From a virus (taxonomy: Duplodnaviria > Caudoviricetes): a stretch of 60,512 bases of DNA. Numbering within the stretch: the first letter of the stretch is position 1; each line of letters opens with the position of its first letter. The notes below the pieces were generated by a model. It saw nothing but the letters and a program-made list of their open reading frames with translations, searched no databases and was not told where the DNA came from. Location of the stretch: IMG/VR virus record IMGVR_UViG_3300011335_000429, positions 1 to 60,512 of that record, one strand, 5' to 3'. Shown here in pieces: positions 40,707 to 55,947 of the stretch. Position numbers and translations under genes: made by a program.

Positions 40707-42628
40707 GCAACCTCCATTTCTTTTTGTGTAAGGGCGGCTTCAACGCCCAACGATTCGTCGCCACGGACGAGGTTAGTAAATATGTTATTGCGGATATCCC
40801 TACGGAATGACGAGGGTAAGTCGTCAAGCGAGTACCCGATGGCGGGATTGTGGAGTGGATACAGCAATTGCCAACCCGATAGTCTGCTGCCCGTCACCCG
40901 GAATCTACCGCGATACGCCGGGTCTTGTAGTGCTGAAGGATGAAAACGCAGCGAATTCGACCCCGAATTTTCTTGTGCGCTGATAAACCAACGTTCGGTA
41001 GTGAGTATTTGTGCTTGCGTCAAGCCACACCTTGTCACTTGATCTATGTGTATCACACGCCCATCATCAAGCGTAACTGCCGAGGACGGATTCGTGTATT
41101 CGTACCCATCGTATGGCACAGTCAGCCGCACTGCCCTATCGGTAGACACATACCCACCATATATTTCAGTCATGTCGTCAATGGAGACATAGTCACCAGT
41201 CTCAGCGCATTGGGCAATGTTGAAGTGTTCAATGTGATCTTGGTGGTAGTACTCACCATCCATCTCGACTGTGTAGTCTTCATGGACAAGTGCCATACGA
41301 TTGCGACCATTAACATGAACGTGCGCTGACGTAAAGGACTCGCAGCAACTATTGCAGATGTTCTCGCCACCATATACCCGCGTCAACTCATCGCATCCAT
41401 CACTGCATGAATCGCAGCAGTACTCGTGCTCGTCCTCGTCATCATTGGACACGGGTACCGAGTCCTCGTCGCATACGTAGTTGATCGTACCCTTTTGGTT
41501 GTACGCCTCGTAGGTATCGAACCCCGCATCCGTTGTGGTCATCCAGTATTCCCCGGCGTCGATGATGTTCAGCGACCCGCCGCCCGACTGCGTACCCTTG
41601 TCCACGTAGGACATGATGTGCCGACCGCTATTTTTCTCATCCGGTATCTTGCGAAGGCGCAGTCCCGACAGTGCATACGACCGCTGTTCATACCCCTCAA
41701 CAACCAGTGCGCGGCTCAACTTGTCCTGATCGCCATAGATACGCGCTGCTTTCTTGGTGCTCTTATTGCAGATGCAGCGTGCCGTAATGTGTGACTCATC
41801 CCGTGGGTCGGTGATATAGGCCACCGTGAAATCCCCTGTTGCGTACACCGCTGCCGGATGGATGTGTCCCCTGTACCACGCGTTCTTCTCGTCATGAAAT
41901 CCCTTCGTCATGCACGATTCGCTCGGCCCGTGATTAATGGCATGGATAATCTCAGCCTCGGTATTGGCCCACCTGATCTTGACCGGGGAATTCACCGCTA
42001 CATGGGTAGCAGCCATCTGGTTGATCTGCTCTGCCGACAATACCCCACTGAAATACTTGGTGAGATAGCGTCCCGGTTTGGTACGGGTTTCGCGCTTCAG
42101 CAGCATCTTCTCCACGCTCTCGTAGTACGCCACCTGTGTCGGATCGACCGTGCTGGTATGCAGGCAATGGAACAGGAAGTGAGGGGAATTCTGGAAGAAG
42201 GTGTCGTGATGCCAGTGAACCTGTTTCCACGTGCCGTTATCGTACTCCCCTTGTGCATCGGTCAGTGCATTACGCAGCTTGGCTGGCAGCACATCTATAA
42301 TGGAGAGGGCATCGTCGTACTGGAAGCACGGCAGGACGTGGGCATTGGTAAACAGGTAAAACAGGTCATCCCACGCCTTGCGGTGGACGTGTTGTGCCAC
42401 CGTCTTACCGAATACTTTACGCATCTTAATGCGCTCTGCAATGACGCTGCGGTCGGTGTTGTCGAACGTCCACTTGCCCACGGTGCTGTACAGCACCTTC
42501 ATCGTAGTACCCTGACTCATCCGTATGCTCAACTTCGTGTTCTTGAATTCGTAGAAGGAACGGGTATGGGTGTACGTTCCCCCTCTCCGGTAATAACTAC
42601 GGTGTGCCAGCACTGCGATGGTTGCCAT
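40703..42628 (-). CDS. Large early protein with Cys/acidic Zn-ribbon-like repeats
   Basis: KPGRYL, SCM, RIYG, YVD and several CxxC motifs; coupled to the peptidase. Confidence 0.65.
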   Translation of the reverse strand: MATIAVLAHRSYYRRGGTYTHTRSFYEFKNTKLSIRMSQGTTMKVLYSTVGKWTFDNTDRSVIAERIKMRKVFGKTVAQHVHRKAWDDLFYLFTNAHVLPCFQYDDALSIIDVLPAKLRNALTDAQGEYDNGTWKQVHWHHDTFFQNSPHFLFHCLHTSTVDPTQVAYYESVEKMLLKRETRTKPGRYLTKYFSGVLSAEQINQMAATHVAVNSPVKIRWANTEAEIIHAINHGPSESCMTKGFHDEKNAWYRGHIHPAAVYATGDFTVAYITDPRDESHITARCICNKSTKKAARIYGDQDKLSRALVVEGYEQRSYALSGLRLRKIPDEKNSGRHIMSYVDKGTQSGGGSLNIIDAGEYWMTTTDAGFDTYEAYNQKGTINYVCDEDSVPVSNDDEDEHEYCCDSCSDGCDELTRVYGGENICNSCCESFTSAHVHVNGRNRMALVHEDYTVEMDGEYYHQDHIEHFNIAQCAETGDYVSIDDMTEIYGGYVSTDRAVRLTVPYDGYEYTNPSSAVTLDDGRVIHIDQVTRCGLTQAQILTTERWFISAQENSGSNSLRFHPSALQDPAYRGRFRVTGSRLSGWQLLYPLHNPAIGYSLDDLPSSFRRDIRNNIFTNLVRGDESLGVEAALTQKEMEVA

Positions 42629-42630
42629 GA

Positions 42631-42786
42631 TTACTTCGCTCCTTTGGTCGCGTTGATCTTGGTGCGTTGCTTTACAGCACGCAGGTTGTTGGCATCAAGG
42701 TACGCGAGTTTCTGAGCGGCAGTCTTGTCCTGCCACGCCTTGTTCCTCGCATCCGCTTCAGCACGTTTCATCGCTTTCAGTTTCAT
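42631..42786 (-). CDS. Small basic protein (not in ORF track)
   Basis: MKLKAMKRAEADARNKAWQDKTAAQKLAYLD... Confidence 0.55.
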   Translation of the reverse strand: MKLKAMKRAEADARNKAWQDKTAAQKLAYLDANNLRAVKQRTKINATKGAK

Positions 42787-42800
42787 ATGCATATACTCGC

Positions 42801-43097
42801 TTACGCGAGTATCTCCTTCTCGTTGTTGTAATAGGCTTTCCAGCCGGGTGTTTTCCTATCCCCTCGGTTAATAAACTGAAGGTTTCTAACGTTGATAACC
42901 CACGTATTGCTGTTGGAGCGGTCACGTCCAATGGTGCTGCGTTCGTTGAGGTCATCTGCCAACACGTAGACGCTTTGTGTATTAGTCGGGCCACACATTC
43001 CTGTGATGACGCCAGTGCAGCCAATGGAGAACACTTCTATCCCGCGCATTCCTGCGTCCTCAGAGACATACATCACCTTGTCCCCAACATTAAACAT
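42801..43097 (-). CDS. SH3/KOW-like hypothetical protein
   Basis: FNVGDKV...GCTGVI; GGAGG RBS. Confidence 0.6.
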   Translation of the reverse strand: MFNVGDKVMYVSEDAGMRGIEVFSIGCTGVITGMCGPTNTQSVYVLADDLNERSTIGRDRSNSNTWVINVRNLQFINRGDRKTPGWKAYYNNEKEILA

Positions 43098-43341
43098 GGT
43101 TCACCTCCTGTTCTTGCAAGACATAGGCTTTCCAACCATCCGTTCGCCTGTCACGCTTGCCGATCATCTGGAATCGATGTGCGTAGTACCTTGCATCGTT
43201 GGGGTTCGTCTTGGAATCCAGATGCACTTCGACCATGTCAACGTCTACTATAAGAGTAATCATCCCCGTAGCATGGAGTGGCAGGTCGGACTTGGGATCA
43301 ACGACGATCACCCTGTCCCCCACTCTCAGTTTAGTGGTCAT
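43090..43341 (-). CDS. SH3/KOW-like hypothetical protein, probable paralogue of the neighbour
   Basis: LRVGDRV...ATGMI; shared DRxTxGWKAY tail. Confidence 0.6.
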   Translation of the reverse strand: MTTKLRVGDRVIVVDPKSDLPLHATGMITLIVDVDMVEVHLDSKTNPNDARYYAHRFQMIGKRDRRTDGWKAYVLQEQEVNHV

Positions 43342-43443
43342 CTCACACTCCCAAAGAGAACATCAGAATCACGAAGCCCCACACCACAATCAATGTGAAG
43401 TTAGTCAGCATTACTACGTGTATAAACCTCATCTCACCCCTCC

Positions 43444-43719
43444 TTACCAGTCGCATTGCAAAAACACGGTGACACCGCGCATTTGCATGAACAAGAATAA
43501 AAGAAACGCCTCGTCAAAAGAAAGCAGATGCGCTTCCGTGATCCGGTAGACCAATTCCTCAGTCATCGGCACGGCAACATTGTTGGGTGCAAACTTCACA
43601 AAACCCCACGCGCTACGGGCATAGTAGAGTTCAATAAACCTATCCTTATCTGCCGCGCTGTACGTCTTTTGCGCTGGATCGGCGTCTTTTATTGCAAAAA
43701 TGTGTACGTCTAGTCCCAT
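43444..43719 (-). CDS. Hypothetical protein (MGLD...Y.R...W family)
   Basis: MGLDVHIF start, ELYYAR, C-terminal CDW. Confidence 0.6.
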   Translation of the reverse strand: MGLDVHIFAIKDADPAQKTYSAADKDRFIELYYARSAWGFVKFAPNNVAVPMTEELVYRITEAHLLSFDEAFLLFLFMQMRGVTVFLQCDW

Positions 43720-43721
43720 GA

Positions 43722-44009
43722 TTAGTCCTTTGTCCACTGCTGGTACACGCCAGCCTCGTAGTCTTTGAAACGCGGATCGGTAAACTCATCCTCTGCCGAC
43801 CACTGATCCAGCGGGGCAATATTGGCCTGTTGCACCAACAACCACGCGTGGGCCGTATCCTCGTTTGCAAAGAATGCCGATATGACGCTGTGAGGGTGAC
43901 CCTCCCAGAAGCCAGTAATTTCGGCTTGCCAAAACACCATGCTGGCTGCGGCAATTTCAGCTTCCGTTTCTTTCCGCAGTCGGTTCACCATTTCATCAAA
44001 CTCTTCCAT
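43722..44009 (-). CDS. Hypothetical acidic protein
   Basis: GGAGGT RBS. Confidence 0.6.
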   Translation of the reverse strand: MEEFDEMVNRLRKETEAEIAAASMVFWQAEITGFWEGHPHSVISAFFANEDTAHAWLLVQQANIAPLDQWSAEDEFTDPRFKDYEAGVYQQWTKD

Positions 44010-44029
44010 GCTCTACCTCCACTGTTAAG

Positions 44030-44648
44030 TTTCATCGGCTTTGCAATGGGTACAGACGTGACAAAACACCACGTCAGTGGTGTCCGTGATTTATACCCAT
44101 TGGAAAACCCGCCTCGGTTTAGGTGCGCCCCATTGCTGGTGGCTCCCAACAGCACCATGCCTTGCTTAATGCCTTGGCGGATAACCTTGCAGCCCATCAA
44201 CCACCGCCTGTTTAAGGTCAGCCACCGCATGTGGGACAGTAAGCACGAACGAGGAAAAGCACTCGGCGTGGCCTGTAGCCAGTCGGACTAGGTCGAAGTC
44301 GATATATCTCCAGTAGTATCTGCCGTGTCAACTACAAGCCTTACAGCACAACGTATGGATGGGGGTGTTGTCTACCAGAGGGATGTTTACCGATAATCTC
44401 AGGGAACCGAGTCTGTCCAATTCCGTGGTATCGCTAAGTGGTGTGCCGCCAGCCTCGCAGCTTTCATTCGGACACCTGTTGATGAGTATCAACCTCTAAT
44501 GGCAATCCTGCCAACCCTGCCGTGCCGCAGACCAGTAATGATGGAATCGGAGGAGAATTGTACGTACAAGCGATTTGCTTCGATACACCAGCCGGGTTCG
44601 AGCCAACTGTTCTGTATTCGCTTGCCGTGGTCGAAGCCGCTCGACCGG
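44030..44648 (-). ncRNA. Candidate large structured non-coding RNA / leader
   Basis: No credible CDS; sigma70-type promoter directly upstream; many helices with G-U pairs and GNRA loops on the - strand. Confidence 0.55.
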
Positions 44649-44653
44649 AAAAC

Positions 44654-44682
44654 ATCCTCTCACAAAGCCGAAAACTTGTCAA
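44654..44682 (-). promoter_or_regulatory. Sigma70-type promoter TTGACA-17-GAGGAT
   Basis: Perfect -35 at 44682-44677, TG before the -10, IHF consensus at 44693-44705. Confidence 0.6.
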
Positions 44683-44705
44683 GTTTTTGCCGCAAGTCGT
44701 TGATT

Positions 44706-45059
44706 TCACAGCGTTTTTTGCTGTCGGCGTTGTCGCTTTTGCCTCGCTTTTTTGCGGTCAGCAATTAGCTTCAACTCGTACTGCGCCTGTGCCATCCTCT
44801 TTTTCTTTAATTCCACCCGTTCGTAAATGGGCATGGGGGTATTAATTAAACGCTGCGCCTCACGCCTGACTTTACTCAGACGTAGTGTGGGTTTAATAAA
44901 ATCGGCAATTAATTCCTCACGTAACTTATCCTTGTGCGTCTGGATATAATTGTTTTTCAGGGCAAGCATCGTGTAGCCATGTATTTCTGGCGGCTTTTCG
45001 CGTTTATTTTTATTCTTTTTCGCGTGTAATGCCAGTTGGGATAATTCTTTTGGCGTCAT
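44706..45059 (-). CDS. Highly basic hypothetical protein
   Basis: AAGGA RBS; own promoter. Confidence 0.6.
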   Translation of the reverse strand: MTPKELSQLALHAKKNKNKREKPPEIHGYTMLALKNNYIQTHKDKLREELIADFIKPTLRLSKVRREAQRLINTPMPIYERVELKKKRMAQAQYELKLIADRKKARQKRQRRQQKTL

Positions 45060-45091
45060 TTTTAATTCCTTCTCGCTTTTTTAATGGTGCG

Positions 45092-45120
45092 AATGTAGCG
45101 TGTTTTGGCATTAAAGTCAA
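45092..45120 (-). promoter_or_regulatory. Sigma70-type promoter TTGACT-17-TACATT
   Basis: Consensus match upstream of the 45059 start. Confidence 0.6.
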
Positions 45121-45700
45121 TTAAAATGATTTTCCTCAGAATGTGGGATATGTCAAGTGCTTGAATATAAAGGGATTGTACGACTTACATCCGTATCCTT
45201 CGGGGAAAGACCCCCGCGAAATATTCCAACTACCCAAAATAAATTTCTATACGCGAGGGTCTATATTTTTTAAGAAAAGGATGTATATATATATATATCT
45301 TTAAGAATCAATTAGTTAGTTGCATCCGCACCCTCATTGGTATCCCCTTTGGTATCCCTTGGCTAAATCCCTCCGCGGATTGTCTATTCCCCGTTTCCCT
45401 TATGGTTCAATGACTTAGTGTTTGAAAATCGTTTAATTTTGACGACCTAAAACGCGGATAGTGTTGTAAGTCATTGATTATACAGTGATGTGTACGCAGT
45501 GTAAAACGGGCCTCCATAGGAGAGAGGTAATTAAATTAAATGGCTAGGCGTAGTACAACACGGATATTAAATGGCGAAAAGGCGCTGGCCTCCGGCGAAT
45601 GGGTTTTTATTTAATTAAATTAATTAACTGGTACTTCCCTCCGCGTAAATGAAGTGCGTGCCTCCGAATCATGAGTGCCGGTCTTAAAAAATAGGCAAAA
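45121..45700. other. AT-rich non-coding region with IHF consensus sites, (AT)n run and short direct repeats; candidate origin or packaging site
   Basis: WATCAANNNNTTR matches at 45306-45318 (+) and 45467-45479 (-); near matches at 45154 and 45405; TGGTATCCC twice. Confidence 0.55.
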
Positions 45701-45733
45701 AAATTGCGCCACCCCATTACAGGGTGGCGCAAT
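45697..45733 (-). terminator. Rho-independent terminator of the first early operon
   Basis: ATTGCGCCACCC stem on the - strand followed by a T run. Confidence 0.75.
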
Positions 45734-45737
45734 GAAA

Positions 45738-45887
45738 CTAGAACAGTGGGGCAATTTCGCCATTAAGATAGGCATCCCAGTCGCGCTCGTATTGCATTTC
45801 TGCCGCCCTTTCAATCCAAGAAAGGTATTCCATTTCTCCCGGTGGAAGTACTGCAGCGCGGTACAGCAAAGCGATAAGTAATTTCAA
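45738..45887 (-). CDS. 49-aa early protein (not in ORF track)
   Basis: TTG start; MKLLIALLYRAAVLPPGEMEYLSWIERAAEMQYERDWDAYLNGEIAPLF; ends at the terminator. Confidence 0.45.
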   Translation of the reverse strand: MKLLIALLYRAAVLPPGEMEYLSWIERAAEMQYERDWDAYLNGEIAPLF

Positions 45888-45945
45888 TTTAATTTTCCGT
45901 AAGTGTAAGACTGCACCACGCCTTACGGGACGTGGTGCAGTTAAA

Positions 45946-46128
45946 TCAGTGAACGTGCCGCGCCATTGTTACGGCGCGCAAAAGGCGTGAAAACCTGCGA
46001 CGACTGGAAACTGTCGCAGTAGCCAGTGGCTTATACATCACCACCGCAGTGTGTTTCGGAGCCGCTTTCGCGGCTTTTCTTTCGGACAGGCGCATTGCGC
46101 CCTTTCCGTTTCGTTTGATTTTAATCAT
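45946..46128 (-). CDS. Small basic early protein
   Basis: GAGG RBS; flanked by hairpins. Confidence 0.55.
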   Translation of the reverse strand: MIKIKRNGKGAMRLSERKAAKAAPKHTAVVMYKPLATATVSSRRRFSRLLRAVTMARHVH

Positions 46129-46175
46129 GTCGAATCCTCGACACTGCCGTCTTACGGGACGGCAGTGCTTTCAGA

Positions 46176-46478
46176 TTATTTGGAGAGGCGAATCCACATT
46201 TCGCGAGTTTCACCTTCTACGCTAAACGTGGCGTAGTGTTTCCCCATCGACGCTTTTCCCGTGCCGATCACAACGCCTTTGAATGTTGCGGCGCGAATGC
46301 GGCGCGTGGCGTCCGCGATTTGTTCGGCTTGCGTGGCAATTGCCGGAGCCGCTTTCGCGGCTTTTGCCGGAACCGCAGGAGCCGCAGGAGCCACAGGAGC
46401 CGCTTGCTGCATTGCGGCGAGAACAGCGGCCACTACGGACGCTACATCAACAGCGGGTACTACAGGCTTGTTAGCCAT
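46176..46478 (-). CDS. Ala/Pro-rich early protein
   Basis: Start MANKP after GGGAG; downstream of a promoter. Confidence 0.6.
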   Translation of the reverse strand: MANKPVVPAVDVASVVAAVLAAMQQAAPVAPAAPAVPAKAAKAAPAIATQAEQIADATRRIRAATFKGVVIGTGKASMGKHYATFSVEGETREMWIRLSK

Positions 46479-46648
46479 GTCTAATGCTCCCGTTAAGGGT
46501 ACTGCGTTACCGCGTCTAACATGAGCGGCCAATGTGTTACCCGGTATCACCCGGAAAGTGCCGATTCTCTCGGCAGCTCGAATCGCTAGTTTGGGAGACT
46601 GTATCGGCATCGTGAACCTTCGCCGTGCGCCCTTGCTTGCTTGAATCC

Positions 46649-46677
46649 ATAATGCCCACTTGTGCATCAATTGTCAA
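46649..46677 (-). promoter_or_regulatory. Sigma70-type promoter TTGACA-17-CATTAT
   Basis: Consensus match; head of the leftward arm. Confidence 0.65.
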
Positions 46678-46847
46678 TCTTTTTTTGATCGGCGCACCGG
46701 CACTTTTTTGTACCCCCCCAGAGGCCAAACCGCTAGCCTCCTCTATGAGGGATTGCACCGCGCACCCAGTGACCGAATCCACGCAGCACAGTTAAACCCT
46801 AAGCCGTTAGGGTTCTGCTAGCAGCCACCCAAGTTAAACCTCACACA

Positions 46848-46876
46848 TTGACACAAAGTGTTTATAGATATAACAT
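46848..46876 (+). promoter_or_regulatory. Sigma70-type promoter TTGACA-17-TAACAT
   Basis: Consensus match; head of the rightward packaging/structural arm. Confidence 0.6.
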
Positions 46877-46882
46877 GGGTTC

Positions 46883-47089
46883 ATGCGTACCTGCCCCAAG
46901 TGCAAATCCAACTACGAAGAGGGTGAGTTTCCGGTAGATCGGTCGCGTGTTTCGGGGCGGTATCCGTACTGTAAGGCGTGTGCGGTGATGATGCAGATGC
47001 TTTGGCGTGAGAACAACCCGGATAAACACAAGGCAATCGTGGCACGCCGCCTTGCACGGATCAAAAAGAGCCATGAACAGTCCGCCTGA
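46883..47089 (+). CDS. Zn-finger protein resembling the N-terminus of EndoVII/HNH homing endonucleases
   Basis: CPKC...F..DRSRVSG....CKAC...WRENNPDK; no nuclease domain. Confidence 0.65.
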   Translation: MRTCPKCKSNYEEGEFPVDRSRVSGRYPYCKACAVMMQMLWRENNPDKHKAIVARRLARIKKSHEQSA

Positions 47090-47624
47090 CGACTCGGAGA
47101 TGATGGAAATACTCAGCCAGCAACTGGCTGTGCCGCCTGATCCGAGCAAAACGGCCCCCTACCCGCGTGGATTGGCGTTGGATTTGGCGTTACAGACGGC
47201 TTCTCTCCCTGTAATACTGGAGTCCTACAACCTGACCCCTGCGGATGCGAAGCGTATCTTCGTTAACCCCGCGTTCCGTCTGGAATACGATGAGATGGTG
47301 GCTTCCACCAGACAGGAAGGCTTCTCATTCAGGCGAAAAGCGGCGGCGCAAGCCGAGGCGTATCTGGAAGTGTTGTGGGGGATGGCAAATTCGCCGTTAA
47401 CCCCGGCGGCTGTGCGTGCAGATATCGTCAAATCAACGGTAAAGTGGGGGGCGTTGGAGAGTGCGCCAACGGCGCAGGCTGCGGGTGCGGACATGTTCAG
47501 TGCGGAGGCGCTGCGAAAGTTGCAGGAGATGCCCGATCAGGAGTTGGAAGTCAATGTGATGAAGATCATCAGCCGCAAACGTCCTGAAGCAATGAAAACA
47601 ATCACTGTGGAAAACGAAAAATGA
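47073..47624 (+). CDS. Putative terminase small subunit
   Basis: Helical 183-aa protein upstream of terL; positional inference only. Confidence 0.45.
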   Translation: MNSPPDDSEMMEILSQQLAVPPDPSKTAPYPRGLALDLALQTASLPVILESYNLTPADAKRIFVNPAFRLEYDEMVASTRQEGFSFRRKAAAQAEAYLEVLWGMANSPLTPAAVRADIVKSTVKWGALESAPTAQAAGADMFSAEALRKLQEMPDQELEVNVMKIISRKRPEAMKTITVENEK

Positions 47625-47914
47625 TCGCAGAACAACTTGGATTGCATCGTAGACCGAAGGTACTGGAGTTTCGTGTGGTGGATGTGTTGAATGAAGCGTC
47701 GTATTTGGAGGCAGCGAAGTTACTGCGAGAGCGGGGTGACTTACCACTAATGCTGTTTGTGCAGGATGACCACGTGATGCCAGAGTTTGCCGAGTGGCTG
47801 TGGAATAACCACCGGGTGACGAGTTTTATGATGTTGCCGGTCGGTCTGTTGAATTCGCCGTCGCGGTGGGCGTTGGCGGGGCATAAATACACGGTGTTGG
47901 GCGGGTTGACTTGA
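47621..47914 (+). CDS. Hypothetical protein
   Basis: ATGA and TTGA coupling. Confidence 0.55.
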   Translation: MIAEQLGLHRRPKVLEFRVVDVLNEASYLEAAKLLRERGDLPLMLFVQDDHVMPEFAEWLWNNHRVTSFMMLPVGLLNSPSRWALAGHKYTVLGGLT

Positions 47915-50436
47915 TCCTATCGGAAGACGACTTCGATTTCTCGGCATTTGCGCCGAAGGAAGTGGTATTGATAAGGGAGTACCTGCGAAGGAAAGCAGTA
48001 CGGGCCAAAGGCGAGAAATTCATCGACTACGTGCAGGCGTTATGGCCTTGGTTTATTGTGGAAGCGGTGCACGTCATGATCGCTGACTATTTTGAGAAGC
48101 TGTTGGCAGGTGAAATTGACCGACTGATGATTAACATGCCTCCGCGTACTGGGAAAAGCGTGATGACATCCGAGGCGCTGCCTGCGTGGTGGATTGGGCA
48201 CTTCCCAACAGACAAAATACTGCACACAAGTTATGCGCTTGGGTTGGTGGAAAAGTTTGGCAGGAAAATCCGCAACTCGTTGGCAGACCCCGCGTATCAG
48301 GAAATGTTTCCCGGCACCCGGTTGGCAAAAGACAGCAAGGCCAGTGCGCAGTGGGCGACGGCGGTGGGGGGCGAGTACAACGCGGCGGGGTTGGGGGGTG
48401 GCGTGGCGGGTAAGGGCTGGAACCTCGGCATCATTGATGACCCAACGTCTGAGCAGGACGCATTTTCAAAAACTGCGCACGATAATGCGTTTGAGTGGTA
48501 CGGCGCGGGGTTTTACACCAGACGGCAACCGGACAGGAATGCTGTGGTGGTGACACAGTGTATGACAGGCGATACCCCCGTCCTGATGGCAAGTGGAACA
48601 GAAAAACCACTGCGTCACATCCAACCCGGTGATGAAGTGGCGACATACGAGAACGGGGCGTTGACTACTACCCGCGTAGCTGCGTGGCGGTCAAATGGTA
48701 TAGATGCCATATATACGGTGCACACACGATCTGGTAGAATACTCCGTGCTAACGAGCGACACCCGTTTCTTGTTGAGCAAAACGGAGAGCGAAAATGGGT
48801 GAGACTGCGCGACCTGACACCGGGCCTTGGCCTTGTACTACTGAAGGGTGTACTAGACTTGGGCGGACAAAAACCAGACCGGGAAAATGCAACGCTTGCA
48901 CGGCCTCCAAGTCGTATCACAAAAAACACCCTGATGCGCCGTATCGCCCGGTGGGGCATCATGGTAAGTGGAAAGGTAAATTCTGTATTGATGAAGCGTG
49001 CGCAGAACCCGCTATCATCCATGGATACTGCGCTTCACACCACCAGAAATTTCTTTGGTTGGTTGGGCACCGCAGTGCTTCGTATAGTCCCGAGTATCGA
49101 CGTAACGACCATCTTAAACGGCGCTACGGGATTACAACAAAACAATTCGACAAACTTTTTTGTGAACAGAAATACGTTTGCGCCGTATGTAAACAACCCC
49201 CATCAAAACACAATACTCGCGCACATTGGAACGGTAAGCTATGCGTCGATCACGACCACACAACGGGGCGTGTACGAGGGTTGTTGTGTAACGACTGCAA
49301 CCTCGCAGTCGGATACGCAAAGACCGCAGCTACAGCAGATGCAGTGGCGCAATATCTCCAACTTCACGGTGGATCGGATAACGGCGATAGTTCCTGATGG
49401 GCGGGAAGAAGTATTCGACGTAGAAATTGAACGCACGGAAAATTTCATTGCTAATGGATTTGTCAGCCATAACACCCGTTGGCGCACCGACGATTTGACC
49501 GGGCGGCTGTTGGAGGAAGAAAGGAAAGACGAGGGGGCGGACAAATGGACACTGCTTAAAATCCCCGCCATTTTGGATGAAGAGGGTGCGGATATGTTGA
49601 ATAAATACGCAAACCACCCCGCGATTAAGGTGCCGTGCAGGTACAGGGAAGGGGACAGCTTTGCGCCGCAGCGATGGCCGTTGGTGGAAATCAACCGCAC
49701 GATCAACCAGATCAGCAGGAAGGCGCAAGCGTCCCTGTACCGGCAAAGCCCCACGGAAGAAGAGGGTTCGATACTGTTAAGGAAATGGTGGCAGGTGTGG
49801 GAAAACGAGCCGCCGAAAGTGGAGTTTGTTATACAGTCCTACGACACGGCGTTTGAAGAATCCGAGCGAAACGACTTCTCGGCACGGACGACGTGGGGGG
49901 TATTCAAGTACGAGAAGACGAACCAGTACTGCGCGATACTGCTGGAAGCGATGGAAAAACGCCTTAATTTCCCCGACTTGCGACAAAACGCGTGGGAATC
50001 GTACCAGCAGTACAAGCCGGATCGCGTGATCGTGGAGAAGAAAGCCTCCGGTCACAGCTTGATCCAAGAACTGAGAAAACGCGGCGTGCCGATAACGGCG
50101 AGTCAGGCAAAAGGCTCCAAGGAAAGTCGTATGGATACGGCATCAGTACCCCTTGAGGCCGGGAACGTATACTATTTCGACACGCGTTGGGCTAATGCGG
50201 TGGTAGACCATTGCGCGGTGTTTCCGAACGGGCCAAATGATGACTTGGCTGACAGCGTGGCACACGCCTTGATTTGGCTGCGTAAAACGTTTCATTTGGA
50301 TGCCCGGTCAGATCGGCGCTTTGACAAGGATGCCGTTGAGGACGACGCGAATGAAAGATTTGCCGTTACCCCCCAGAGAAGTTACGCTGTACGGCGCACC
50401 GGCACCCGGATGCGCATAGGAGAAAGACATGGCTAA
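47911..50436 (+). CDS. terL: Terminase large subunit containing an intein
   Basis: Walker A MPPRTGKS, Walker B GIIDD, coupling motif VVVTQ/TRW split by the intein, nuclease motifs SYDTA, VEKKASG and DDLADS. Confidence 0.95.
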   Translation: MILSEDDFDFSAFAPKEVVLIREYLRRKAVRAKGEKFIDYVQALWPWFIVEAVHVMIADYFEKLLAGEIDRLMINMPPRTGKSVMTSEALPAWWIGHFPTDKILHTSYALGLVEKFGRKIRNSLADPAYQEMFPGTRLAKDSKASAQWATAVGGEYNAAGLGGGVAGKGWNLGIIDDPTSEQDAFSKTAHDNAFEWYGAGFYTRRQPDRNAVVVTQCMTGDTPVLMASGTEKPLRHIQPGDEVATYENGALTTTRVAAWRSNGIDAIYTVHTRSGRILRANERHPFLVEQNGERKWVRLRDLTPGLGLVLLKGVLDLGGQKPDRENATLARPPSRITKNTLMRRIARWGIMVSGKVNSVLMKRAQNPLSSMDTALHTTRNFFGWLGTAVLRIVPSIDVTTILNGATGLQQNNSTNFFVNRNTFAPYVNNPHQNTILAHIGTVSYASITTTQRGVYEGCCVTTATSQSDTQRPQLQQMQWRNISNFTVDRITAIVPDGREEVFDVEIERTENFIANGFVSHNTRWRTDDLTGRLLEEERKDEGADKWTLLKIPAILDEEGADMLNKYANHPAIKVPCRYREGDSFAPQRWPLVEINRTINQISRKAQASLYRQSPTEEEGSILLRKWWQVWENEPPKVEFVIQSYDTAFEESERNDFSARTTWGVFKYEKTNQYCAILLEAMEKRLNFPDLRQNAWESYQQYKPDRVIVEKKASGHSLIQELRKRGVPITASQAKGSKESRMDTASVPLEAGNVYYFDTRWANAVVDHCAVFPNGPNDDLADSVAHALIWLRKTFHLDARSDRRFDKDAVEDDANERFAVTPQRSYAVRRTGTRMRIGERHG
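48559..49473 (+). mobile_element. Intein (305 aa) in TerL
   Basis: Block A CMTGDTPVLMASG, block B ANERHPF, block F VFDVEIE, block G NFIANGFVSHN followed by Thr(+1). Confidence 0.93.
48795..49397 (+). CDS. Endonuclease VII-family (His-Me finger) homing endonuclease, out of frame inside the intein
   Basis: LKRRYGIT...Q...CAVC...LCVDHDHTTGRVRGLLCNDCNLAVG; N-terminal Cys/His zinc fingers; GGAGAG RBS before the ATG. Confidence 0.9.
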   Translation: MGETARPDTGPWPCTTEGCTRLGRTKTRPGKCNACTASKSYHKKHPDAPYRPVGHHGKWKGKFCIDEACAEPAIIHGYCASHHQKFLWLVGHRSASYSPEYRRNDHLKRRYGITTKQFDKLFCEQKYVCAVCKQPPSKHNTRAHWNGKLCVDHDHTTGRVRGLLCNDCNLAVGYAKTAATADAVAQYLQLHGGSDNGDSS

Positions 50437-53005
50437 ATCAATTGGAATGTTGAAGGTACAACCCGGTGCGCTCGAAGATATTTCGCTAACCCCCGGTGAA
50501 ATAGAAATTAACTTCGGTGTTACGCCGATTGATGAGATGGAAGCGTTTACTGTTGACCCTGAAACGGGTGACATAACCGAGAGCGGTGCGGAAGAAGATG
50601 CGGAGGCGACGGAAATCCAGAATGCGGCGTTTAATGACAACCTCGCGTGCTGCATGGAAGAAGATGACCTTGAAGATATTGGCACCAGTGTGTTGGAAAT
50701 GGTCAAGAACGACATCGATAGTCGTAAGGATTGGTATGAAAAACTGAAAGAAGGGTTGCAGCGTCTTGGTGTGTACAACCCCGACTCGGATGCGGACACC
50801 GGGATTGCAAAGGTTACGCACCCCCTCCTGTTGGAAGCGGCAACACAGTTTCAGGCCCGTGCGATGACGGAGTTGCTGCCCCCCGGTGGCCCGGTAAAAT
50901 CGTTTATCGAAGGGCTGAGTGACGAGGCTGTGCAAGCGCAAGCAAGCCGCGTCGAGCGGTATATGAACTACCAGCTTACGATTGAAGATCGGTCGTATTA
51001 CGACGAGCGCGACCAAATGATGTTCCTCCTGCCCTTCACCGGCAGCGAGTTTGACAAACAGTATTACTGCCCTGCAACAGAACGGGTGTTGAGTCGGTGG
51101 GTGCATTGCGACGACTTTATTGTGCCGTACAACACCAAGACACTGGAGGAAGCAACCCGCTACACCCACGTCGTTCGGATGACGGGCAATCAGCTTCGTG
51201 CTGCGATGGCGGCGGGGGTTTATGACGAAGTTGATTTGGGCGAACCAGTCAGTACGGATTTGAGCGAAGCGCCGTTGACATCCAAACTGCAGGAACTCGA
51301 CGGCCAGATTAAAGTCGATACGCTGGACGCAGACAAGGAATACACGCTGTACGAAGTGCACATTGATTACGATGTGGAAGGGCTAGTGGAAGCCGCACCG
51401 CTCCCGTTCATGATTACCATCGACAGCGAAACCGGCAAGGTTCTGAGTATCTACAGGAACTGGAAAGAAACGGATCGGCTACAACGTAAACGCATTCGGT
51501 TTACCCACAAGAAGTTCCTCCCCGGATTTGGGTTTTATGGATTCGGGTTGCTGCACTGCATTGGTAATTTGGGAGATGCGGCAAGCGAAATCCTGCGCAT
51601 TTTGATTGATTCCGGTGCGTTTGCCACGTTGCAGGGTGGATTCAAGTCCATCGACGCGAAGATCAAGGGCGATGTGATCCTGCAGCCCGGTCAGTGGCAA
51701 GACACCGAGATGACGGCGGATGAGTTGCAACGTGCGTTCTACACGCCCCCGTGGAAGGAACCCAGCCCAACGCTTGAGAAGTTGTTGGGAGTGCTGGTCG
51801 ATGCAGGGCAGAGATTTGCGTCTACTACGGAAACGATGACGGGCGATGCCGCGACGACTGGCCCGGTGGGGACGATGGTTGCGCAGATTGAACAGGGGAG
51901 CAAGGTGTTCTCCGGTATCCATAAGCGCCTGCACAAAGCGTTTGGTGATGAGTTTCTGCACATCGCTGAGTTGAATGGCGAGTATTTGCCTGACGCTTAT
52001 CCGTATCGTATGCAGACGCAGGAACAGAACGTGTTGCGTGCGGACTTTGATGGGCGCGTTGACATCATTCCTGTATCTGACCCGAACATCTTCTCCAGCG
52101 CACAACGCATCGCATTGGCGCAGTCGGCATTCCAGATGACAACGCAGTTGCCTGATATGGGTGATCGGCGTGAAGCGGCGGTGCAGTTGCTGACGGCGCT
52201 GCGTTATCCGAACCCGGAGAAGATATTTCCCAAACCAGCCGATGCGCAACGTGTTGACCCATTGAACGAAGGCTCCGTGATGTTGATGGGACGACCCATT
52301 AAAGCATTCTTGGATCAGGATCACACGTCGCACATGACGGTACACCAAGGGCAGATACAAGGACTACCGCCGCAATATCACCCGCTCATGACGGCGCATA
52401 TCGCTGAACACATGGCAATGGCGCAGTATATGAAGTTTGTAATGATGGGCGTGCAGTTGCCCCCTGTGAAGTGGGATGCGGAGAAGACCCTCCCGATGAT
52501 GCCTAACCTGCCGCCTGAAATTGAAACGCAGATTGCCAAGGCGTCGGCACAGGCAATGCAACAGATGATGCAGCAACTCCAGCAACAACAAGCCGCTCAA
52601 CAGGGTCAGCAACCCCAAGGTGGCGCGAATCCGCAAGCGGATGCAGCAGCAGCAACACAACAGAAATTGCAGGCGCAGGATGCGGAGTTTAAACAAAAAC
52701 TGCAACACAAGGATGCGGAGTTCCAATCCGAGCAACAACGCAAGAACGCGGAACTGGCTGCAAATGTGGATCGTGAAGACGCTCTATCGGGGATTTCTCC
52801 CGATATGGTGAAACAGGCACAGGAGTTCATCACAAATTCCGGGGTGCAAATGTCGCCGCGTGAACTGGCGGTGTTGTCTAAGGCGCTTGGGGCACCGTTT
52901 GATAAGGTCATACAGGCAATATCGCGTATGCAGATGGGTGGTCAGGGCGCTGGGCCAGTGCCTATCGTGACTAATTTTGAACAGAACCCGGCCAGATTTA
53001 CATAA
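50429..53005 (+). CDS. Portal protein
   Basis: HPLLLEAATQFQARA, YMNYQL, FLPGFGFYGFGL and PVGT motifs; follows terL; Gln-rich C-terminal barrel region. Confidence 0.88.
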   Translation: MAKSIGMLKVQPGALEDISLTPGEIEINFGVTPIDEMEAFTVDPETGDITESGAEEDAEATEIQNAAFNDNLACCMEEDDLEDIGTSVLEMVKNDIDSRKDWYEKLKEGLQRLGVYNPDSDADTGIAKVTHPLLLEAATQFQARAMTELLPPGGPVKSFIEGLSDEAVQAQASRVERYMNYQLTIEDRSYYDERDQMMFLLPFTGSEFDKQYYCPATERVLSRWVHCDDFIVPYNTKTLEEATRYTHVVRMTGNQLRAAMAAGVYDEVDLGEPVSTDLSEAPLTSKLQELDGQIKVDTLDADKEYTLYEVHIDYDVEGLVEAAPLPFMITIDSETGKVLSIYRNWKETDRLQRKRIRFTHKKFLPGFGFYGFGLLHCIGNLGDAASEILRILIDSGAFATLQGGFKSIDAKIKGDVILQPGQWQDTEMTADELQRAFYTPPWKEPSPTLEKLLGVLVDAGQRFASTTETMTGDAATTGPVGTMVAQIEQGSKVFSGIHKRLHKAFGDEFLHIAELNGEYLPDAYPYRMQTQEQNVLRADFDGRVDIIPVSDPNIFSSAQRIALAQSAFQMTTQLPDMGDRREAAVQLLTALRYPNPEKIFPKPADAQRVDPLNEGSVMLMGRPIKAFLDQDHTSHMTVHQGQIQGLPPQYHPLMTAHIAEHMAMAQYMKFVMMGVQLPPVKWDAEKTLPMMPNLPPEIETQIAKASAQAMQQMMQQLQQQQAAQQGQQPQGGANPQADAAAATQQKLQAQDAEFKQKLQHKDAEFQSEQQRKNAELAANVDREDALSGISPDMVKQAQEFITNSGVQMSPRELAVLSKALGAPFDKVIQAISRMQMGGQGAGPVPIVTNFEQNPARFT

Positions 53006-54638: not shown

Positions 54639-55196
54639 ATGAAAAATACACAGCAGATTGATGACGATATTCCTATCCCCGGCAGTGTGTCGCTGTCTCG
54701 TGAGCGTGCGCGTGAACCGGTACATGAGTCTCGCGAGTACGAAACGTATGAACTGTCGGATGCAAACAAGTCCGAGGCTGACAAACCATGGGTTCGTCCT
54801 ACCAGCCTTGAAGCGCCCCCCGCACGCCCCGGATTTGCACAGCGGTGGATCAGGGTTGCTATCCGCAACGACCCAGACCCGACAAATACGTCCCGCAAAT
54901 TCCGCGAAGGGTGGAAGCCGCGTGCGGCATCTACGGTGCCGTCGTCATACCAAGCGCCCACTATTGCGCATGGGAAATGGGCGGGAACCATTGGTGTCGA
55001 AGGTATGGTGCTGTGCGAGATGCCTACCAAAATGGTGGAAAAACGTCGTAAGTTTTACGCGGGTGAGACACGCCGTGTGACTAGTGCTATTGAGACAGAA
55101 CTGCAGGCGCAAAGCCACCCGTCCATGCAGATCACGCAGGAACGCTCCAGTAAGCTGGTTCGGGAGGTAAAACCGATGACTGACGGAGAAAGTTGA
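54639..55196 (+). CDS. Conserved head-module protein
   Basis: W.RPTSL.AP...PG...RWIR and REGW motifs. Confidence 0.65.
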   Translation: MKNTQQIDDDIPIPGSVSLSRERAREPVHESREYETYELSDANKSEADKPWVRPTSLEAPPARPGFAQRWIRVAIRNDPDPTNTSRKFREGWKPRAASTVPSSYQAPTIAHGKWAGTIGVEGMVLCEMPTKMVEKRRKFYAGETRRVTSAIETELQAQSHPSMQITQERSSKLVREVKPMTDGES

Positions 55197-55221
55197 CATC
55201 TTCTAAAAGGTGGAGTAGAAA

Positions 55222-55250
55222 GGGCACATCACGGTGTGCCTTTTTTATTT
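55222..55250 (+). terminator. Rho-independent terminator
   Basis: GGCACA(TCACGG)TGTGCC followed by TTTTTTATTT. Confidence 0.75.
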
Positions 55251-55350
55251 TAGGGGGCAAATCCGGTGGCGCTGACGTGTAGAACTTTCAGTCGAGCGAG
55301 AGTAGAGAGGAAGCGGGTTTCTTTTCAATTTCGTTTTATGGAGGTTTCTC

Positions 55351-55947
55351 ATGGCAGCAAACTCGTTTGGTTTTTCCGGGTTTACGCCGCTGCGTCACAT
55401 GGCGGGGGGCGTAATTCGTGCCAACGCGTATCAGATTCTTACTTCTGGTACCACTGGTTTCAACGACAACTTTTACACTGGCGACATGGTGCTGTTGAAC
55501 TCTGACGGAACCATTGAAATCGGTGCCGCAGGTTCTGGCGCTACTGCTATCGGCATTTTTGCTGGTTGCACGTATGTTGCGTCTAGCGATAACACGATCA
55601 AGTTTGCCCCCAACTGGCCTGCAAGTACCGCTGTCATTACCGGTACGACAATTACGGCTTATGTGTACGACGATCCGAACATCACGTATGACGTGACTTC
55701 TGATGCAACGACGGTTGTGGCGCAAGACATGGTTGGAATGAACGCCGACCACGTTGTGGGCACCGGCAGCAACTTCACCGGGCAGTCTGGTTCGTCCCTG
55801 AACGTTACGTCTGGCACCGGCTCCGGCACGGCGCAGTTCCGTATTCTTGGAATTCGCGCACTCGCTAACAACCCTGTTGGTTTCACGAACACGAAGCTCG
55901 AAGTTAAGTTTAATGAGCATCTGTTCCTGACCACGACCGGCGTATAA
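55351..55947 (+). CDS. Capsid decoration/cement-like protein
   Basis: Directly upstream of the major capsid gene; GIFAGCTY and V.DDP motifs; GGAGG RBS. Confidence 0.65.
   Translation: MAANSFGFSGFTPLRHMAGGVIRANAYQILTSGTTGFNDNFYTGDMVLLNSDGTIEIGAAGSGATAIGIFAGCTYVASSDNTIKFAPNWPASTAVITGTTITAYVYDDPNITYDVTSDATTVVAQDMVGMNADHVVGTGSNFTGQSGSSLNVTSGTGSGTAQFRILGIRALANNPVGFTNTKLEVKFNEHLFLTTTGV

What the first reader, a model, noticed from the sequence alone, without database searches (positions are those of the whole stretch)
44030..44682. Candidate ~620-nt highly structured ncRNA with its own promoter
Seen: a long stretch with no credible CDS in an otherwise gene-dense arm, starting just after a TTGACA-17-GAGGAT promoter. 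Minus-strand helices include GGUCGA/UCGACC at the 5' end, CAAGCGA/UCGCUUG closing a multiloop, UGGCA/UGCCA, GUUGAU/AUCAAC, GCGA- and GCAA-capped stems, a 12-bp GGCUUGUAGUUG/UGGCUACAGGCC helix (44340-29/44281-70), GGCGG/CCGCC, and a long terminal hairpin (CAAUGGGUA/UACCCAUUG, 44102-44044) just before the next RBS. G-U pairs favour the - strand. Established: phages carry large ornate RNAs such as GOLLD and ROOL. I cannot match this one to a known class, so it may be new (scaffold, anti-defence sponge or antitermination leader).
Basis: partly seen in the sequence, partly recalled or inferred. Interest (0 to 1): 0.75.

Follow-up and report, generated by a model that had tools for sequence, protein, structure and literature searches.

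The report
Conserved 620-base phage noncoding RNA
A 620-base stretch of a freshwater phage genome that encodes no protein is kept almost unchanged between related phages and is probably made into a folded RNA of a kind not yet catalogued, although most of its fold and its job remain unproven.

Summary
The ORF-poor stretch is real and it is a functional non-coding element, not a chance gap. The window is a complete 60.5-kb phage record from fresh water. Between this phage and a sister lineage (L004), neighbouring genes differ at 0.34-0.46 substitutions per synonymous site. The roughly 600-nt body differs at only about 3% outside four hairpin tips.

Evidence against a coding gene:
- No frame has coding potential.
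- Substitutions lack codon periodicity, and one indel is 1 nt long.
- No ORF in the region has a protein family or homologues.

Evidence for an RNA:
- All three large indels sit at hairpin tips.
- Two hairpins carry compensatory changes.
- The minus strand tolerates the changes better than the plus strand.
- The promoter is invariant.
- A lake metatranscriptome library holds contigs of the element.

"Highly structured" is not shown. 180 of 194 predicted pairs never vary, and only the terminal hairpin folds exceptionally (z -5.6). Against genome background the whole stretch has z -1.4.

There is no Rfam match, and no homologue was found outside this narrow phage clade. I read it as a candidate new phage RNA family of unknown function. 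Interest is moderate.

The parts
44654..44682 (-). Promoter: -35 TTGACA (44682-44677), 17-nt spacer, TG (44662-44661), -10 GAGGAT (44659-44654). The inferred start is near 44648-44645.
   Evidence: Sequence read. The promoter is invariant in L003 and L004 while the upstream CDS is about 80% identical. It was not listed by the consensus scan because the -10 matches 3 of 6. The 5' end of an RNA-library contig lies near 44641 (inferred from record lengths).
44629..44646 (-). 5' hairpin GGUCGAG-CGGC-UUCGACC
   Evidence: Helix 1. Its 7 pairs are all invariant, so it is untested by covariation.
44562..44628 (-). Long helix (CAAGCGA.../...UCGCUUG) carrying a variable hairpin at 44589-44609
   Evidence: Helices 2-4. 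Helix 4 has 1 double and 2 one-sided compatible changes. Its tip is 11 nt here and 47 nt in L004, L003 and the lake variants.
44544..44561 (-). Predicted single-stranded C/U-rich linker with CCUCC (44553-44549)
   Evidence: Unpaired, and invariant. When the 3' tail is included, it is predicted to pair with the downstream Shine-Dalgarno with probability 0.43-0.44 (window) and 0.36 (L004).
44331..44539 (-). Central domain, including hairpin GUUGA/UCAAC and a hairpin whose tip (44450-44473) is 24 nt longer than in L004. A 1-nt indel lies at 44528.
   Evidence: Helices 6-10, with 3 one-sided compatible changes and no double changes. Indels are shown.
44261..44328 (-).
   Evidence: Helices 11-13, with 1 one-sided change. 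Alternative pairings appear.
44112..44254 (-). Fourth, multi-branched domain. It overlaps the 125-nt run 44170-44294 that shows no difference from L004.
   Evidence: z -1.71, with 11 of 200 shuffles as stable. One one-sided change. Model R1 found it only in the window and L004.
44037..44109 (-). Long terminal hairpin. The basal stem is 44093-44109 with 44037-44053. An inner hairpin at 44066-44083 is followed by UUUU (44062-44065).
   Evidence: z -5.62, 0 of 200 shuffles. 4 pairs changed on both sides and were kept (44098-44101 with 44045-44048), plus 2 one-sided changes. Listed as I1.
44010..44036 (-). 3' tail with Shine-Dalgarno GGAGG (44016-44020), just before the ATG of the next gene (44007-44009)
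   Evidence: The tail and the SD are kept in L004 although a different gene follows.
44706..45059 (-). Upstream 117-aa gene of unknown function (context)
   Evidence: 79% aa identity to L004, dS 0.46. Only 5 protein clusters were found in 5.8 billion proteins.
43722..44009 (-). Downstream 95-aa gene (context). It is part of a 577-nt two-gene segment (43438-44014) that some natural variants lack.
   Evidence: (joint 43437 to 44015).

Best explanation
The stretch is a gene for a non-coding RNA of about 590-640 nt, on the minus strand from about 44647 to about 44037-44026. It belongs to a narrow lineage of freshwater phages.

Inferred mechanism:
1. Host sigma-70 RNA polymerase starts at an invariant TTGACA-17-TGnGAGGAT promoter inside the leftward early operon.
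2. The RNA begins with a protective 5' hairpin.
3. It has a body of several domains whose sequence is under strong purifying selection at nearly every position, with peripheral hairpin tips free to change length.
4. It ends in a long, compensated hairpin.

The basal stem of that hairpin lies downstream of the inner hairpin-plus-U4. Since that basal stem is maintained by compensatory changes, functional transcripts must read through the U-tract. So the hairpin is more likely a 3' stabiliser or an RNase III-type processing site that separates the RNA from the downstream mRNA than a terminator.

The RNA most likely acts as an RNA in its own right, as a stable folded early RNA of the same general kind as ROOL and GOLLD. 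Its partner and function are unknown.

What is shown: non-coding status, nucleotide-level conservation, promoter conservation, strand bias, two compensated hairpins, and presence in an RNA library.

What is inferred: transcription start, read-through and processing, a stand-alone role, and the fold of the central roughly 450 nt.
For: Conservation:
- Per-100-nt identity to L004 is 0.93-0.98 in five of the six bins between 44100 and 44699, and 0.88 in the sixth. The bins from 44700 to 46199 run 0.51-0.96, with eleven of the fifteen at 0.60-0.85.
- There are 44 substitutions in all. 28 fall in four clusters at hairpin tips, and 16 are scattered over about 540 columns.
- Neighbouring genes give dS 0.46 (117 codons) and 0.34 (216 codons of TerL).
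- The lake-water DNA variants X10, X12 and X14 differ by about 1% in the flanks. They show no difference between 43663 and 44688 except a replaced hairpin tip.

Not coding:
- No positive coding frame.
- Substitutions fall 10/10/8 across the three codon positions.
- A 1-nt indel at 44528.
- 0 families for 7 ORFs in Pfam and in PHROGs.
- 0 hits for the 153-aa plus-strand ORF among 1.84 billion representatives.
- 1 near-identical hit only for the 81-aa ORF.

RNA and strand:
- All three large indels (36, 24 and 3 nt) sit at hairpin tips or extend a helix.
- In the consensus, 5 pairs changed on both sides, 9 changed on one side, and none is broken.
- Using the window-only MFE as an unbiased structure, the minus strand keeps 14 and breaks 9 of the touched pairs. 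The plus strand keeps 10 and breaks 15.
- Fold z is -3.54 on minus against -0.99 on plus.

Promoter: invariant in three lineages.

RNA library: run X20 holds two contigs (151 and 299 nt) on 44219-44591 that extend to about 44641. Their difference counts match the L004-type sequence.
Against: - Only two full-length distinct sequences exist, plus one partial sequence and one hairpin variant.
- 180 of 194 predicted pairs never vary, so they say nothing.
- Covariation is confined to 2 of 22 helices, and 20 of 500 shuffles reach the observed values.
- The consensus structure was derived from the same two sequences, so 'none broken' is partly by construction. With the window-only MFE, 9 of 23 touched pairs break.
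- Stability is ordinary against genome background (z -1.41; 13 of 188 windows as low or lower). It is also ordinary for three of four sub-domains.
- The low divergence could partly reflect a recent exchange of this segment between lineages rather than constraint.
- The -10 hexamer is weak, and the consensus scan did not list the promoter.
- The RNA-library contigs have depth of about 3. Contigs cannot show strand, ends or level, and DNA can be present in an RNA library.
- No terminator separates the element from the next gene, so a stand-alone RNA is not shown.
Confidence: 0.55

Rival explanations
1. It is a long cis-acting 5' leader, not a stand-alone RNA. The element would be the structured 5' UTR of the downstream early genes. 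Its conserved CCUCC linker would pair with the Shine-Dalgarno of the first downstream gene, and/or the inner hairpin plus U-tract would attenuate transcription. Expression of the downstream genes would then be gated by the fold.
For: - No efficient terminator lies between the element and the next gene. The SD starts 17 nt after the hairpin.
- The 3' tail and SD context are kept in L004 and in the short lake variant, although a different gene follows.
- Predicted SD to CCUCC pairing has probability 0.43-0.44 (window) and 0.36 (L004).
- The inner hairpin ACACCAC/GUGGUGU followed by UUUU looks like an attenuator.
- In L004 the gene that follows encodes a 28-aa hydrophobic peptide. Products of that type are often tightly controlled at translation (recalled general knowledge of type I toxin mRNAs).
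Against: - 600 nt of near-invariant sequence is far more than known leaders of this type need.
- CCUCC pairing with GGAGG is expected by chance for any exposed CCUCC. One occurrence was found against 0.3 expected.
- The downstream gene is interchangeable, which argues against a gene-specific regulator.
- The pairing probability is under 0.5 and comes from thermodynamic prediction alone.
Confidence: 0.25
2. It is a DNA-level element or a recently exchanged mosaic segment. The block would be conserved because it was recently swapped between lineages, or because the DNA itself is a site for replication, recombination or protein binding. RNA structure would be incidental.
For: - Phage genomes are mosaics. 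Other short islands of high identity exist nearby (45600-45699 at 0.96 and 44900-44999 at 0.94).
- Flanking gene content differs by indels at both edges.
- Most predicted pairs are invariant.
- Stability is ordinary.
- The Watson-Crick swaps in the terminal hairpin fit either strand.
Against: - No direct repeats or iterons and no AT-rich tract in the block. G+C is 0.53.
- Differences are not random. They cluster in hairpin tips and are compensated.
- One-sided changes are G-U compatible on the minus strand only.
- The invariant block begins at a promoter and ends at an SD, which are the limits of a transcription unit.
- Contigs of the block occur in an RNA library.
Confidence: 0.12
3. It is one or more decayed, very small or unconventional protein-coding genes.
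For: - ORFs of 81, 54, 37 and 81 aa tile the minus strand, and a 153-aa ORF lies on the plus strand.
- The 54-aa and 81-aa ORFs persist in L004, and the 24-nt and 36-nt indels are multiples of three.
Against: - No coding-potential signal.
- No periodicity.
- A 1-nt indel breaks the first 81-aa ORF in L004.
- By my reading of the two translations, the amino-acid changes in the 54-aa ORF are mostly non-synonymous.
- No family or homologue.
- 6-10 stops per minus frame, of all three kinds, so no single recoding opens a frame.
Confidence: 0.03

Closest known systems
ROOL RNA (Rumen-Originating, Ornate, Large)
   Same: It is phage- or prophage-encoded, ORF-free, roughly 500-600 nt and multi-domain, with no known protein partner and unknown function. 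Passages of 10.1101/2024.12.08.627333 were read.
   Different: No match to the Rfam model at gathering score or at E<=10. No tRNA genes nearby, whereas ROOL is 'often near tRNA islands'. The fold here is mostly unproven. The distribution is one narrow freshwater phage clade rather than many phages. Nanocage formation is untested.
[quoted passage not shown]
   Same: It is a large phage-associated RNA first seen partly in lake metagenomes, with unknown function. Like GOLLD, this element has a less conserved periphery and a highly conserved block (44170-44294).
   Different: No Rfam match. About 620 nt against more than 800 nt. No linked tRNA. No evidence of multimerisation.
RNase III processing hairpins between early genes of T7-type phages (recalled textbook knowledge, not tested here)
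   Same: A long imperfect hairpin sits between transcription-unit segments of an early operon, with no efficient termination. This applies to the terminal hairpin 44037-44109 and perhaps to the two CCGUAA-loop hairpins further upstream.
   Different: Only the 3' hairpin would be explained, not the 500-nt conserved body. Cleavage was not tested.
Cis-acting leader RNAs: HK022 put antitermination RNA and structured hok-type toxin mRNAs (recalled, not tested here)
   Same: The element is promoter-proximal and lies ahead of a long operon. There is predicted long-range pairing that hides an SD. A small hydrophobic peptide gene follows directly in L004.
   Different: Those elements are roughly 70-400 nt and have defined motifs. 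No sequence or model match was found here. The downstream gene is interchangeable.

Membership tests
ROOL RNA (Rfam) | Significant match to the family covariance model | tested here: not met
   cmscan of the whole window at gathering score gave 0 matches. For 43900-44800 at E<=10 the only match was mir-6529 at E 5.9. In L004 at E<=10 nothing lay inside the element.
ROOL RNA (Rfam) | Phage or prophage location, often beside tRNA genes | tested here: inconclusive
   The phage location is met. ARAGORN found 0 tRNA genes in the window. The tRNA link is frequent in ROOL but not defining.
ROOL / GOLLD | Self-assembly into a homo-oligomeric RNA cage | not testable with these tools
   This needs cryo-EM or SEC-MALS of the transcript.
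GOLLD RNA (Rfam) | Significant match to the family covariance model, with the conserved 3' region | tested here: not met
   Searches gave no match.
Group I / group II introns and other ribozymes in Rfam | Match to a model, and insertion within a host gene | tested here: not met
   No match at E<=10. The element lies between complete genes, and the gene after it differs between lineages.
Sigma-70 promoter | -35 and -10 hexamers with 16-18 nt spacing | tested here: inconclusive
   The -35 matches 6 of 6, the spacer is 17 nt, and the -10 matches 3 of 6 with a TG extension. It falls below the scan's threshold. It is invariant in L003, L004 and the lake variants. No transcription start data are available.
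Intrinsic terminator | G+C-rich hairpin directly followed by a U run, ending the transcript | tested here: inconclusive
   The inner hairpin 44066-44083 is followed by UUUU. It was not listed by the scan. The compensated basal stem lies downstream of the U run, which implies read-through.
Structured non-coding RNA (generic) | Significant covariation across most helices | tested here: inconclusive
   2 of 22 helices have changes on both sides. 180 of 194 pairs are invariant. 20 of 500 shuffles reach the observed values. Only 2 distinct full-length sequences are available.
CsrA/RsmA-type protein sponge RNA | Many GGA motifs in hairpin loops | tested here: not met
   6 GGA found against 8.4 expected from the genome-wide density.

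The most novel reading that the evidence does not exclude
This is the founding member of a new class of large phage-encoded RNAs, unrelated in sequence to ROOL and GOLLD. It would be made early from a host-type promoter. Its near-invariant 600-nt body would reflect dense tertiary or quaternary RNA-RNA contacts, or tight binding to a host machine. One candidate is the ribosome or SD-bearing mRNAs, bound through the exposed CCUCC linker. The variable hairpin tips would be solvent-exposed periphery.
Probability: 0.3. Interest if true: 0.75.

Novelty: new variant of a known kind. Interest (0 to 1): 0.55.

Why it matters
Large RNAs without a coding role are rare in phages. The two known classes, ROOL and GOLLD, turned out to build RNA-only cages whose purpose is still unknown.

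A third, unrelated large RNA would give an independent case for asking what such RNAs do during infection. It sits in the early operon of a phage that also carries a giant virion protein with a weak virion-RNA-polymerase match.

The element is also a clean natural example of nucleotide-level constraint. It diverges by about 3% where synonymous sites have diverged by 0.34-0.46 per site, with hairpin tips that expand and contract. That makes it a well-defined target for structure probing and deletion genetics.

Its weakness is the narrow distribution. With so few variants, comparative proof of the fold is not yet possible.

Tried and rejected
Known RNA families. Rfam at gathering score on the whole window and at E<=10 on the element and on L004 gave nothing. 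The mir-6529 hit (E 5.9, plus strand, on the terminal hairpin) is chance.

Homologue hunts that led nowhere:
- blastn of 43700-45100 against 50,697 phage records: no match.
- Single-protein searches of viral contigs with the 95-aa, 641-aa and 436-aa neighbours: none.
- The 117-aa neighbour gave L002 in viral contigs, which ends before the element. In metagenome contigs it gave L003, which is cut about 120 nt into the element, and L004, which is complete.
- Three exact 17-mers in viral contigs gave 5, 5 and 14 stretches. One 20-mer in 185,579 species genomes gave 15 stretches. nhmmer and blastn found no similarity beyond the seed. The best was L093 at E 0.0015 and 11 bits, with unrelated flanks.
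- 80 loci of distant relatives, kept from 458 found with the peptidase alignment A3, showed no nhmmer match (best E 3.2). Covariance model R1 of the fourth domain found nothing in 84 sources totalling 1,317,825 bases.

Thermodynamic significance of the whole stretch. I rejected this as evidence after the genome-background control.

DGR or retron-like template, or antisense to phage genes. There is no second copy or long complementarity in the window, only 10-13-nt chance matches.

Origin-like iterons. None found.

CsrA sponge. No GGA enrichment.

Resemblance of ACAGAAC...GAACCCGGCU to a bacterial RNase P motif. This was recalled from memory. I rejected it because that part is the variable hairpin tip, which L004 lacks, and because Rfam found no RNase P match.

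Uncovered parts in read laying. The RNA run X20 showed no contig elsewhere in 41000-48000 except a 31-nt low-complexity match at 46373-46403. I do not use this as evidence. The run was found with the element itself. Its phage is the L004 type, whose flanks are only 51-96% identical to the window by 100-nt bin, at a likeness threshold of 80. Depth is about 3.

Literature. Four searches turned up no description of this element. For 10.1101/2024.12.08.627333 I read only the passages returned. All other papers were seen as search listings only. Supplements are closed, so alignments of new RNA classes in supplements could not be compared. Hence 'not described' rests on Rfam 15 and these four searches.

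Full report
CONTEXT. The window is a whole virus record of 60,512 bases with direct terminal repeats.

The rightward arm carries structural genes:
- terminase large subunit at 47911-50436;
- portal at 50429-53005;
- a major-head-like protein at 55959-56873;
- a 3,087-aa protein with a weak match to virion RNA polymerase (E 3.9e-12, residues 1703-1889).

The leftward arm (46670 down to 22100, minus strand) carries small early genes followed by replication genes. These include DNA polymerase, helicase, primase-helicase and an M28-like peptidase.

The finding lies near the start of the leftward arm. It sits between a 117-aa gene (44706-45059) and a 95-aa gene (43722-44009), both of unknown family.

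Near-identical DNA occurs in 20 of 24 listed public runs from 8 studies, labelled lake water, freshwater, riverine and viral metagenomes. I laid three lake-water DNA runs from two studies. They hold the phage on contigs of 19-21 kb with about 1% differences.

THE OBSERVATION. The ORF-poor stretch, the promoter letters and the listed complementary segments are all in the sequence.

Whether the folding is more than chance depends on the control:
- Against dinucleotide shuffles, the 653-nt minus strand has z -3.54 (0 of 20 shuffles as stable). The plus strand has z -0.99 (3 of 20).
- Against 188 natural 620-nt windows of the same genome (both strands; windows overlapping 43900-44800 left out), regressed on G+C, the minus strand has z -1.41. 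13 of 188 windows are as low or lower. The plus strand has z -0.07.
- By sub-domain with 200 shuffles each, the minus strand gives -0.37, -1.10, -1.71 and -5.62. The plus strand gives +0.08, +1.67, -0.24 and -3.88.

So only the terminal hairpin is thermodynamically exceptional. The consistent minus-over-plus difference is real but modest.

NOT CODING.
- A codon-usage log-odds model trained on 16 long ORFs of the window gives positive scores to the flanking genes in their frames. It gives none to any of the six frames between about 44630 and 44030.
- Each minus-strand frame has 6-10 stops, of all three kinds.
- Seven ORFs from the region match no Pfam or PHROGs family at E<=0.1.
- The 153-aa plus-strand ORF has 0 hits among 1.84 billion representative proteins.
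- The 81-aa minus-strand ORF has a single, 97%-identical hit among 5.8 billion.
- In the comparison with L004, the 28 substitutions between 44100 and 44650 fall 10/10/8 over the three codon positions.
- A 1-nt indel at 44528 shifts the frame of the first 81-aa ORF.

RELATIVES AND CONSERVATION. The clade is narrow. The 117-aa neighbour has only 5 protein clusters in the large collection.

Three related contigs were fetched:
- L002 ends before the element.
- L003 is cut about 120 nt into it.
- L004 covers it fully.

Identity to L004 per 100 nt of window is 0.95, 0.93, 0.88, 0.96, 0.98 and 0.95 from 44699 down to 44100. The fifteen upstream bins (44700-46199) run 0.51-0.96. Eleven of them are at 0.60-0.85, and two short islands reach 0.94 and 0.96.

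Of 44 substitutions in aligned columns, 28 lie in four clusters: 44592-44606, 44484-44488, 44084-44101 and 44045-44051. All four are hairpin tips or the terminal hairpin. The other 16 are spread over about 540 columns, which is about 3%. A run of 125 nt (44170-44294) shows no difference.

As a neutral yardstick, the 117-aa gene has dS 0.46 and dN 0.16. The first 216 codons of the terminase (against L002) have dS 0.34 and dN 0.016. The element therefore changes about ten times more slowly than synonymous sites. That is as slowly as the amino-acid-changing sites of the terminase.

The lake variants X10, X12 and X14 agree. The shown table of differences lists none between 43663 and 44688. X10's contig on 44015-44591 has 0 other letters. 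Flanking pieces carry 13 in 499 and 21 in 1,943 (only the best-supported 40 of 141 differences are listed).

The high-identity block starts about 25 nt upstream of the -35 hexamer. It ends just past the Shine-Dalgarno of the next gene. In other words, it has the limits of a transcription unit.

EVIDENCE FOR RNA STRUCTURE.

(i) Indels.
- The hairpin at 44589-44609 has an 11-nt tip in the window. In L004, L003 and all three lake variants the tip is 47 nt. Folded alone, the longer form extends the same helix.
- The hairpin closed by GGUG/CACC carries 24 extra nt (44450-44473) in the window. These include a GCGA-capped stem.
- A 3-nt indel lies inside the terminal hairpin.

(ii) Compensation. The two-sequence RNAalifold consensus has 194 pairs in 22 helices. 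Of these, 180 never vary. 9 vary on one side and stay standard pairs. 5 changed on both sides and stay paired, 1 in the 44589-44609 hairpin and 4 in the terminal hairpin, where CAAUGGG/CCCAUUG becomes CUCAAGG/CCUUGAG. None is broken.

(iii) Controls.
- 20 of 500 column shuffles reach the observed values.
- Sliding the 3' partners by 1-3 columns drops paired cells to 33-44% and double changes to 0-1. The tool warns that a structure derived from the same sequences beats slid versions for that reason alone.
- As an unbiased test I took the MFE of the window sequence alone and asked what L004's substitutions do to it. On the minus strand, 15 of 44 fall in loops and 24 pairs are touched: 14 kept (5 double), 9 broken, 1 opposite a gap. 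On the plus strand, 14 fall in loops and 26 pairs are touched: 10 kept (4 double), 15 broken, 1 opposite a gap.

This favours the minus strand and some real structure. The fold of the central roughly 450 nt remains essentially untested, because it hardly varies.

TRANSCRIPTION.
- The promoter (TTGACA, 17 nt, TG-n-GAGGAT) is invariant in all lineages seen. It is one of four TTGACA-type sites reading leftward within 2 kb: 46677, 45156, 44682 and the near-consensus site at 45505.
- The -10 is weak, and the consensus scan did not list the site.
- The single RNA-labelled run that holds part of the stretch (X20, a lake metatranscriptome library) has two contigs of 151 and 299 nt. They lie on 44219-44369 and on 44354-44591, with 86 further letters beyond. 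They carry 6 and 10 other letters, and 25 gap letters.
- Those counts, and the loose-end consensus, equal what the L004-type sequence would give. With the 47-nt tip, the 299-nt contig reaches about 44641, a few bases inside the inferred start (my arithmetic).
- These are contigs at depth of about 3 from a library that may contain DNA. I therefore count this as presence in an RNA library and a weak hint of a 5' end. It is not proof of transcription.

THE 3' END. The terminal hairpin (44037-44109) encloses a 7-bp hairpin followed by UUUU (44062-44083). The four compensated pairs are in the basal stem, and its 3' arm lies beyond the U run. Selection on that stem implies that functional transcripts extend past the U run. 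I therefore read the hairpin as a stabilising or processing structure rather than an efficient terminator (inference).

The 3' tail and the SD (GGAGG, 44016-44020) are kept in L004, where a different gene follows. That gene encodes a 28-aa hydrophobic peptide, homologous to the window's small ORF at 43343-43456. One lake contig joins 43437 to 44015. So the 577-nt segment holding the 95-aa and 97-aa genes is present or absent among natural variants.

When the tail is included in the fold, the invariant CCUCC of the single-stranded linker (44549-44553) is predicted to pair with the SD. The probability is 0.43-0.44 in the window and 0.36 in L004. This keeps a cis-regulatory reading alive, but a single CCUCC opposite a GGAGG is weak evidence.

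COMPARISON WITH KNOWN SYSTEMS.
- No Rfam 15 family matches.
- The closest in kind are ROOL and GOLLD. These are large phage-borne RNAs of unknown function that form RNA-only cages and often lie near tRNA genes (passages read). This element shares the size class, the phage location and the lack of a known partner. It shares no homology, and the window has no tRNA genes.
- No homologue was found in 80 loci of distantly related phages, by nhmmer or by a covariance model of the fourth domain.
- None was found by four exact-word scans of viral and prokaryotic genome collections (checked).

VERDICT. This is a real, selectively maintained non-coding element, about 0.85 likely to function as or through an RNA of the minus strand.
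- Stand-alone structured RNA: 0.55.
- Cis-acting leader: 0.25.
- DNA-level or mosaic explanation: 0.12.
- Coding: 0.03.

It is not in Rfam, and the four literature searches made here did not find it. The claim 'highly structured, ornate' is not yet earned. The narrow distribution limits both the comparative proof and the breadth of interest.

Noticed in passing
window 47911-50436 (+), insertion about 48559-49473: The terminase large subunit (841 aa) carries an intein. Pfam Intein_splicing matches at E 4.8e-14 (residues 253-521), and there is a Hint match. PHROGs terminase matches are split at residues 35-217 and 438-810. The related contig L002 lacks about 915 nt exactly there.
   Followed up: partly
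window 46142-46167 and 45911-45940 (minus strand): Two 10-12-bp hairpins with the same CCGUAA loop flank a 60-aa ORF (45946-46128). The repeat shows up as D3, and the sequence was read. They could be processing sites, protein-binding hairpins or phage-polymerase signals.
   Followed up: no
window 45060-45945: This is a second ORF-poor early region. It holds a strong terminator-like hairpin (45703-45733, minus strand; 14 pairs plus a T run), a near-consensus promoter (45505-45477; 11 of 12) and further TTGACA sites. It also has an (AT)n palindrome at 45277-45303 and a 100-nt island at 45600-45699 that is 96% identical to L004, while its neighbouring bins are 60-77%. No Rfam match was found at E<=1 apart from a chance hit.
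   Followed up: partly
window 45881-46500: The most stable 620-nt window of the genome on both strands, with z -3.3 and -2.9 against genome background. It overlaps an Ala/Pro-rich 164-aa ORF containing 9-nt tandem repeats at 46366-46401. In the lake variants, 46179-46486 is replaced by 299 other letters.
   Followed up: no
window 43438-44014: A 577-nt segment holding the 95-aa and 97-aa genes is missing in L004 and in one lake contig (joint 43437 to 44015). In those forms the SD after the RNA element is fused to a 28-29-aa hydrophobic peptide gene, which is the window's ORF 43343-43456.
   Followed up: partly
window 11698-20961 (+): A 3,087-aa protein has a weak match to N4-type virion RNA polymerase (phrog_2206, E 3.9e-12, residues 1703-1889) and to phrog_11358. 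If it is a virion polymerase, early transcription may not rely on host sigma-70 promoters alone.
   Followed up: no
window 55181-55800 (+): The third most stable 620-nt window against genome background, with z -2.9. A TTGACA site lies at 55193.
   Followed up: no
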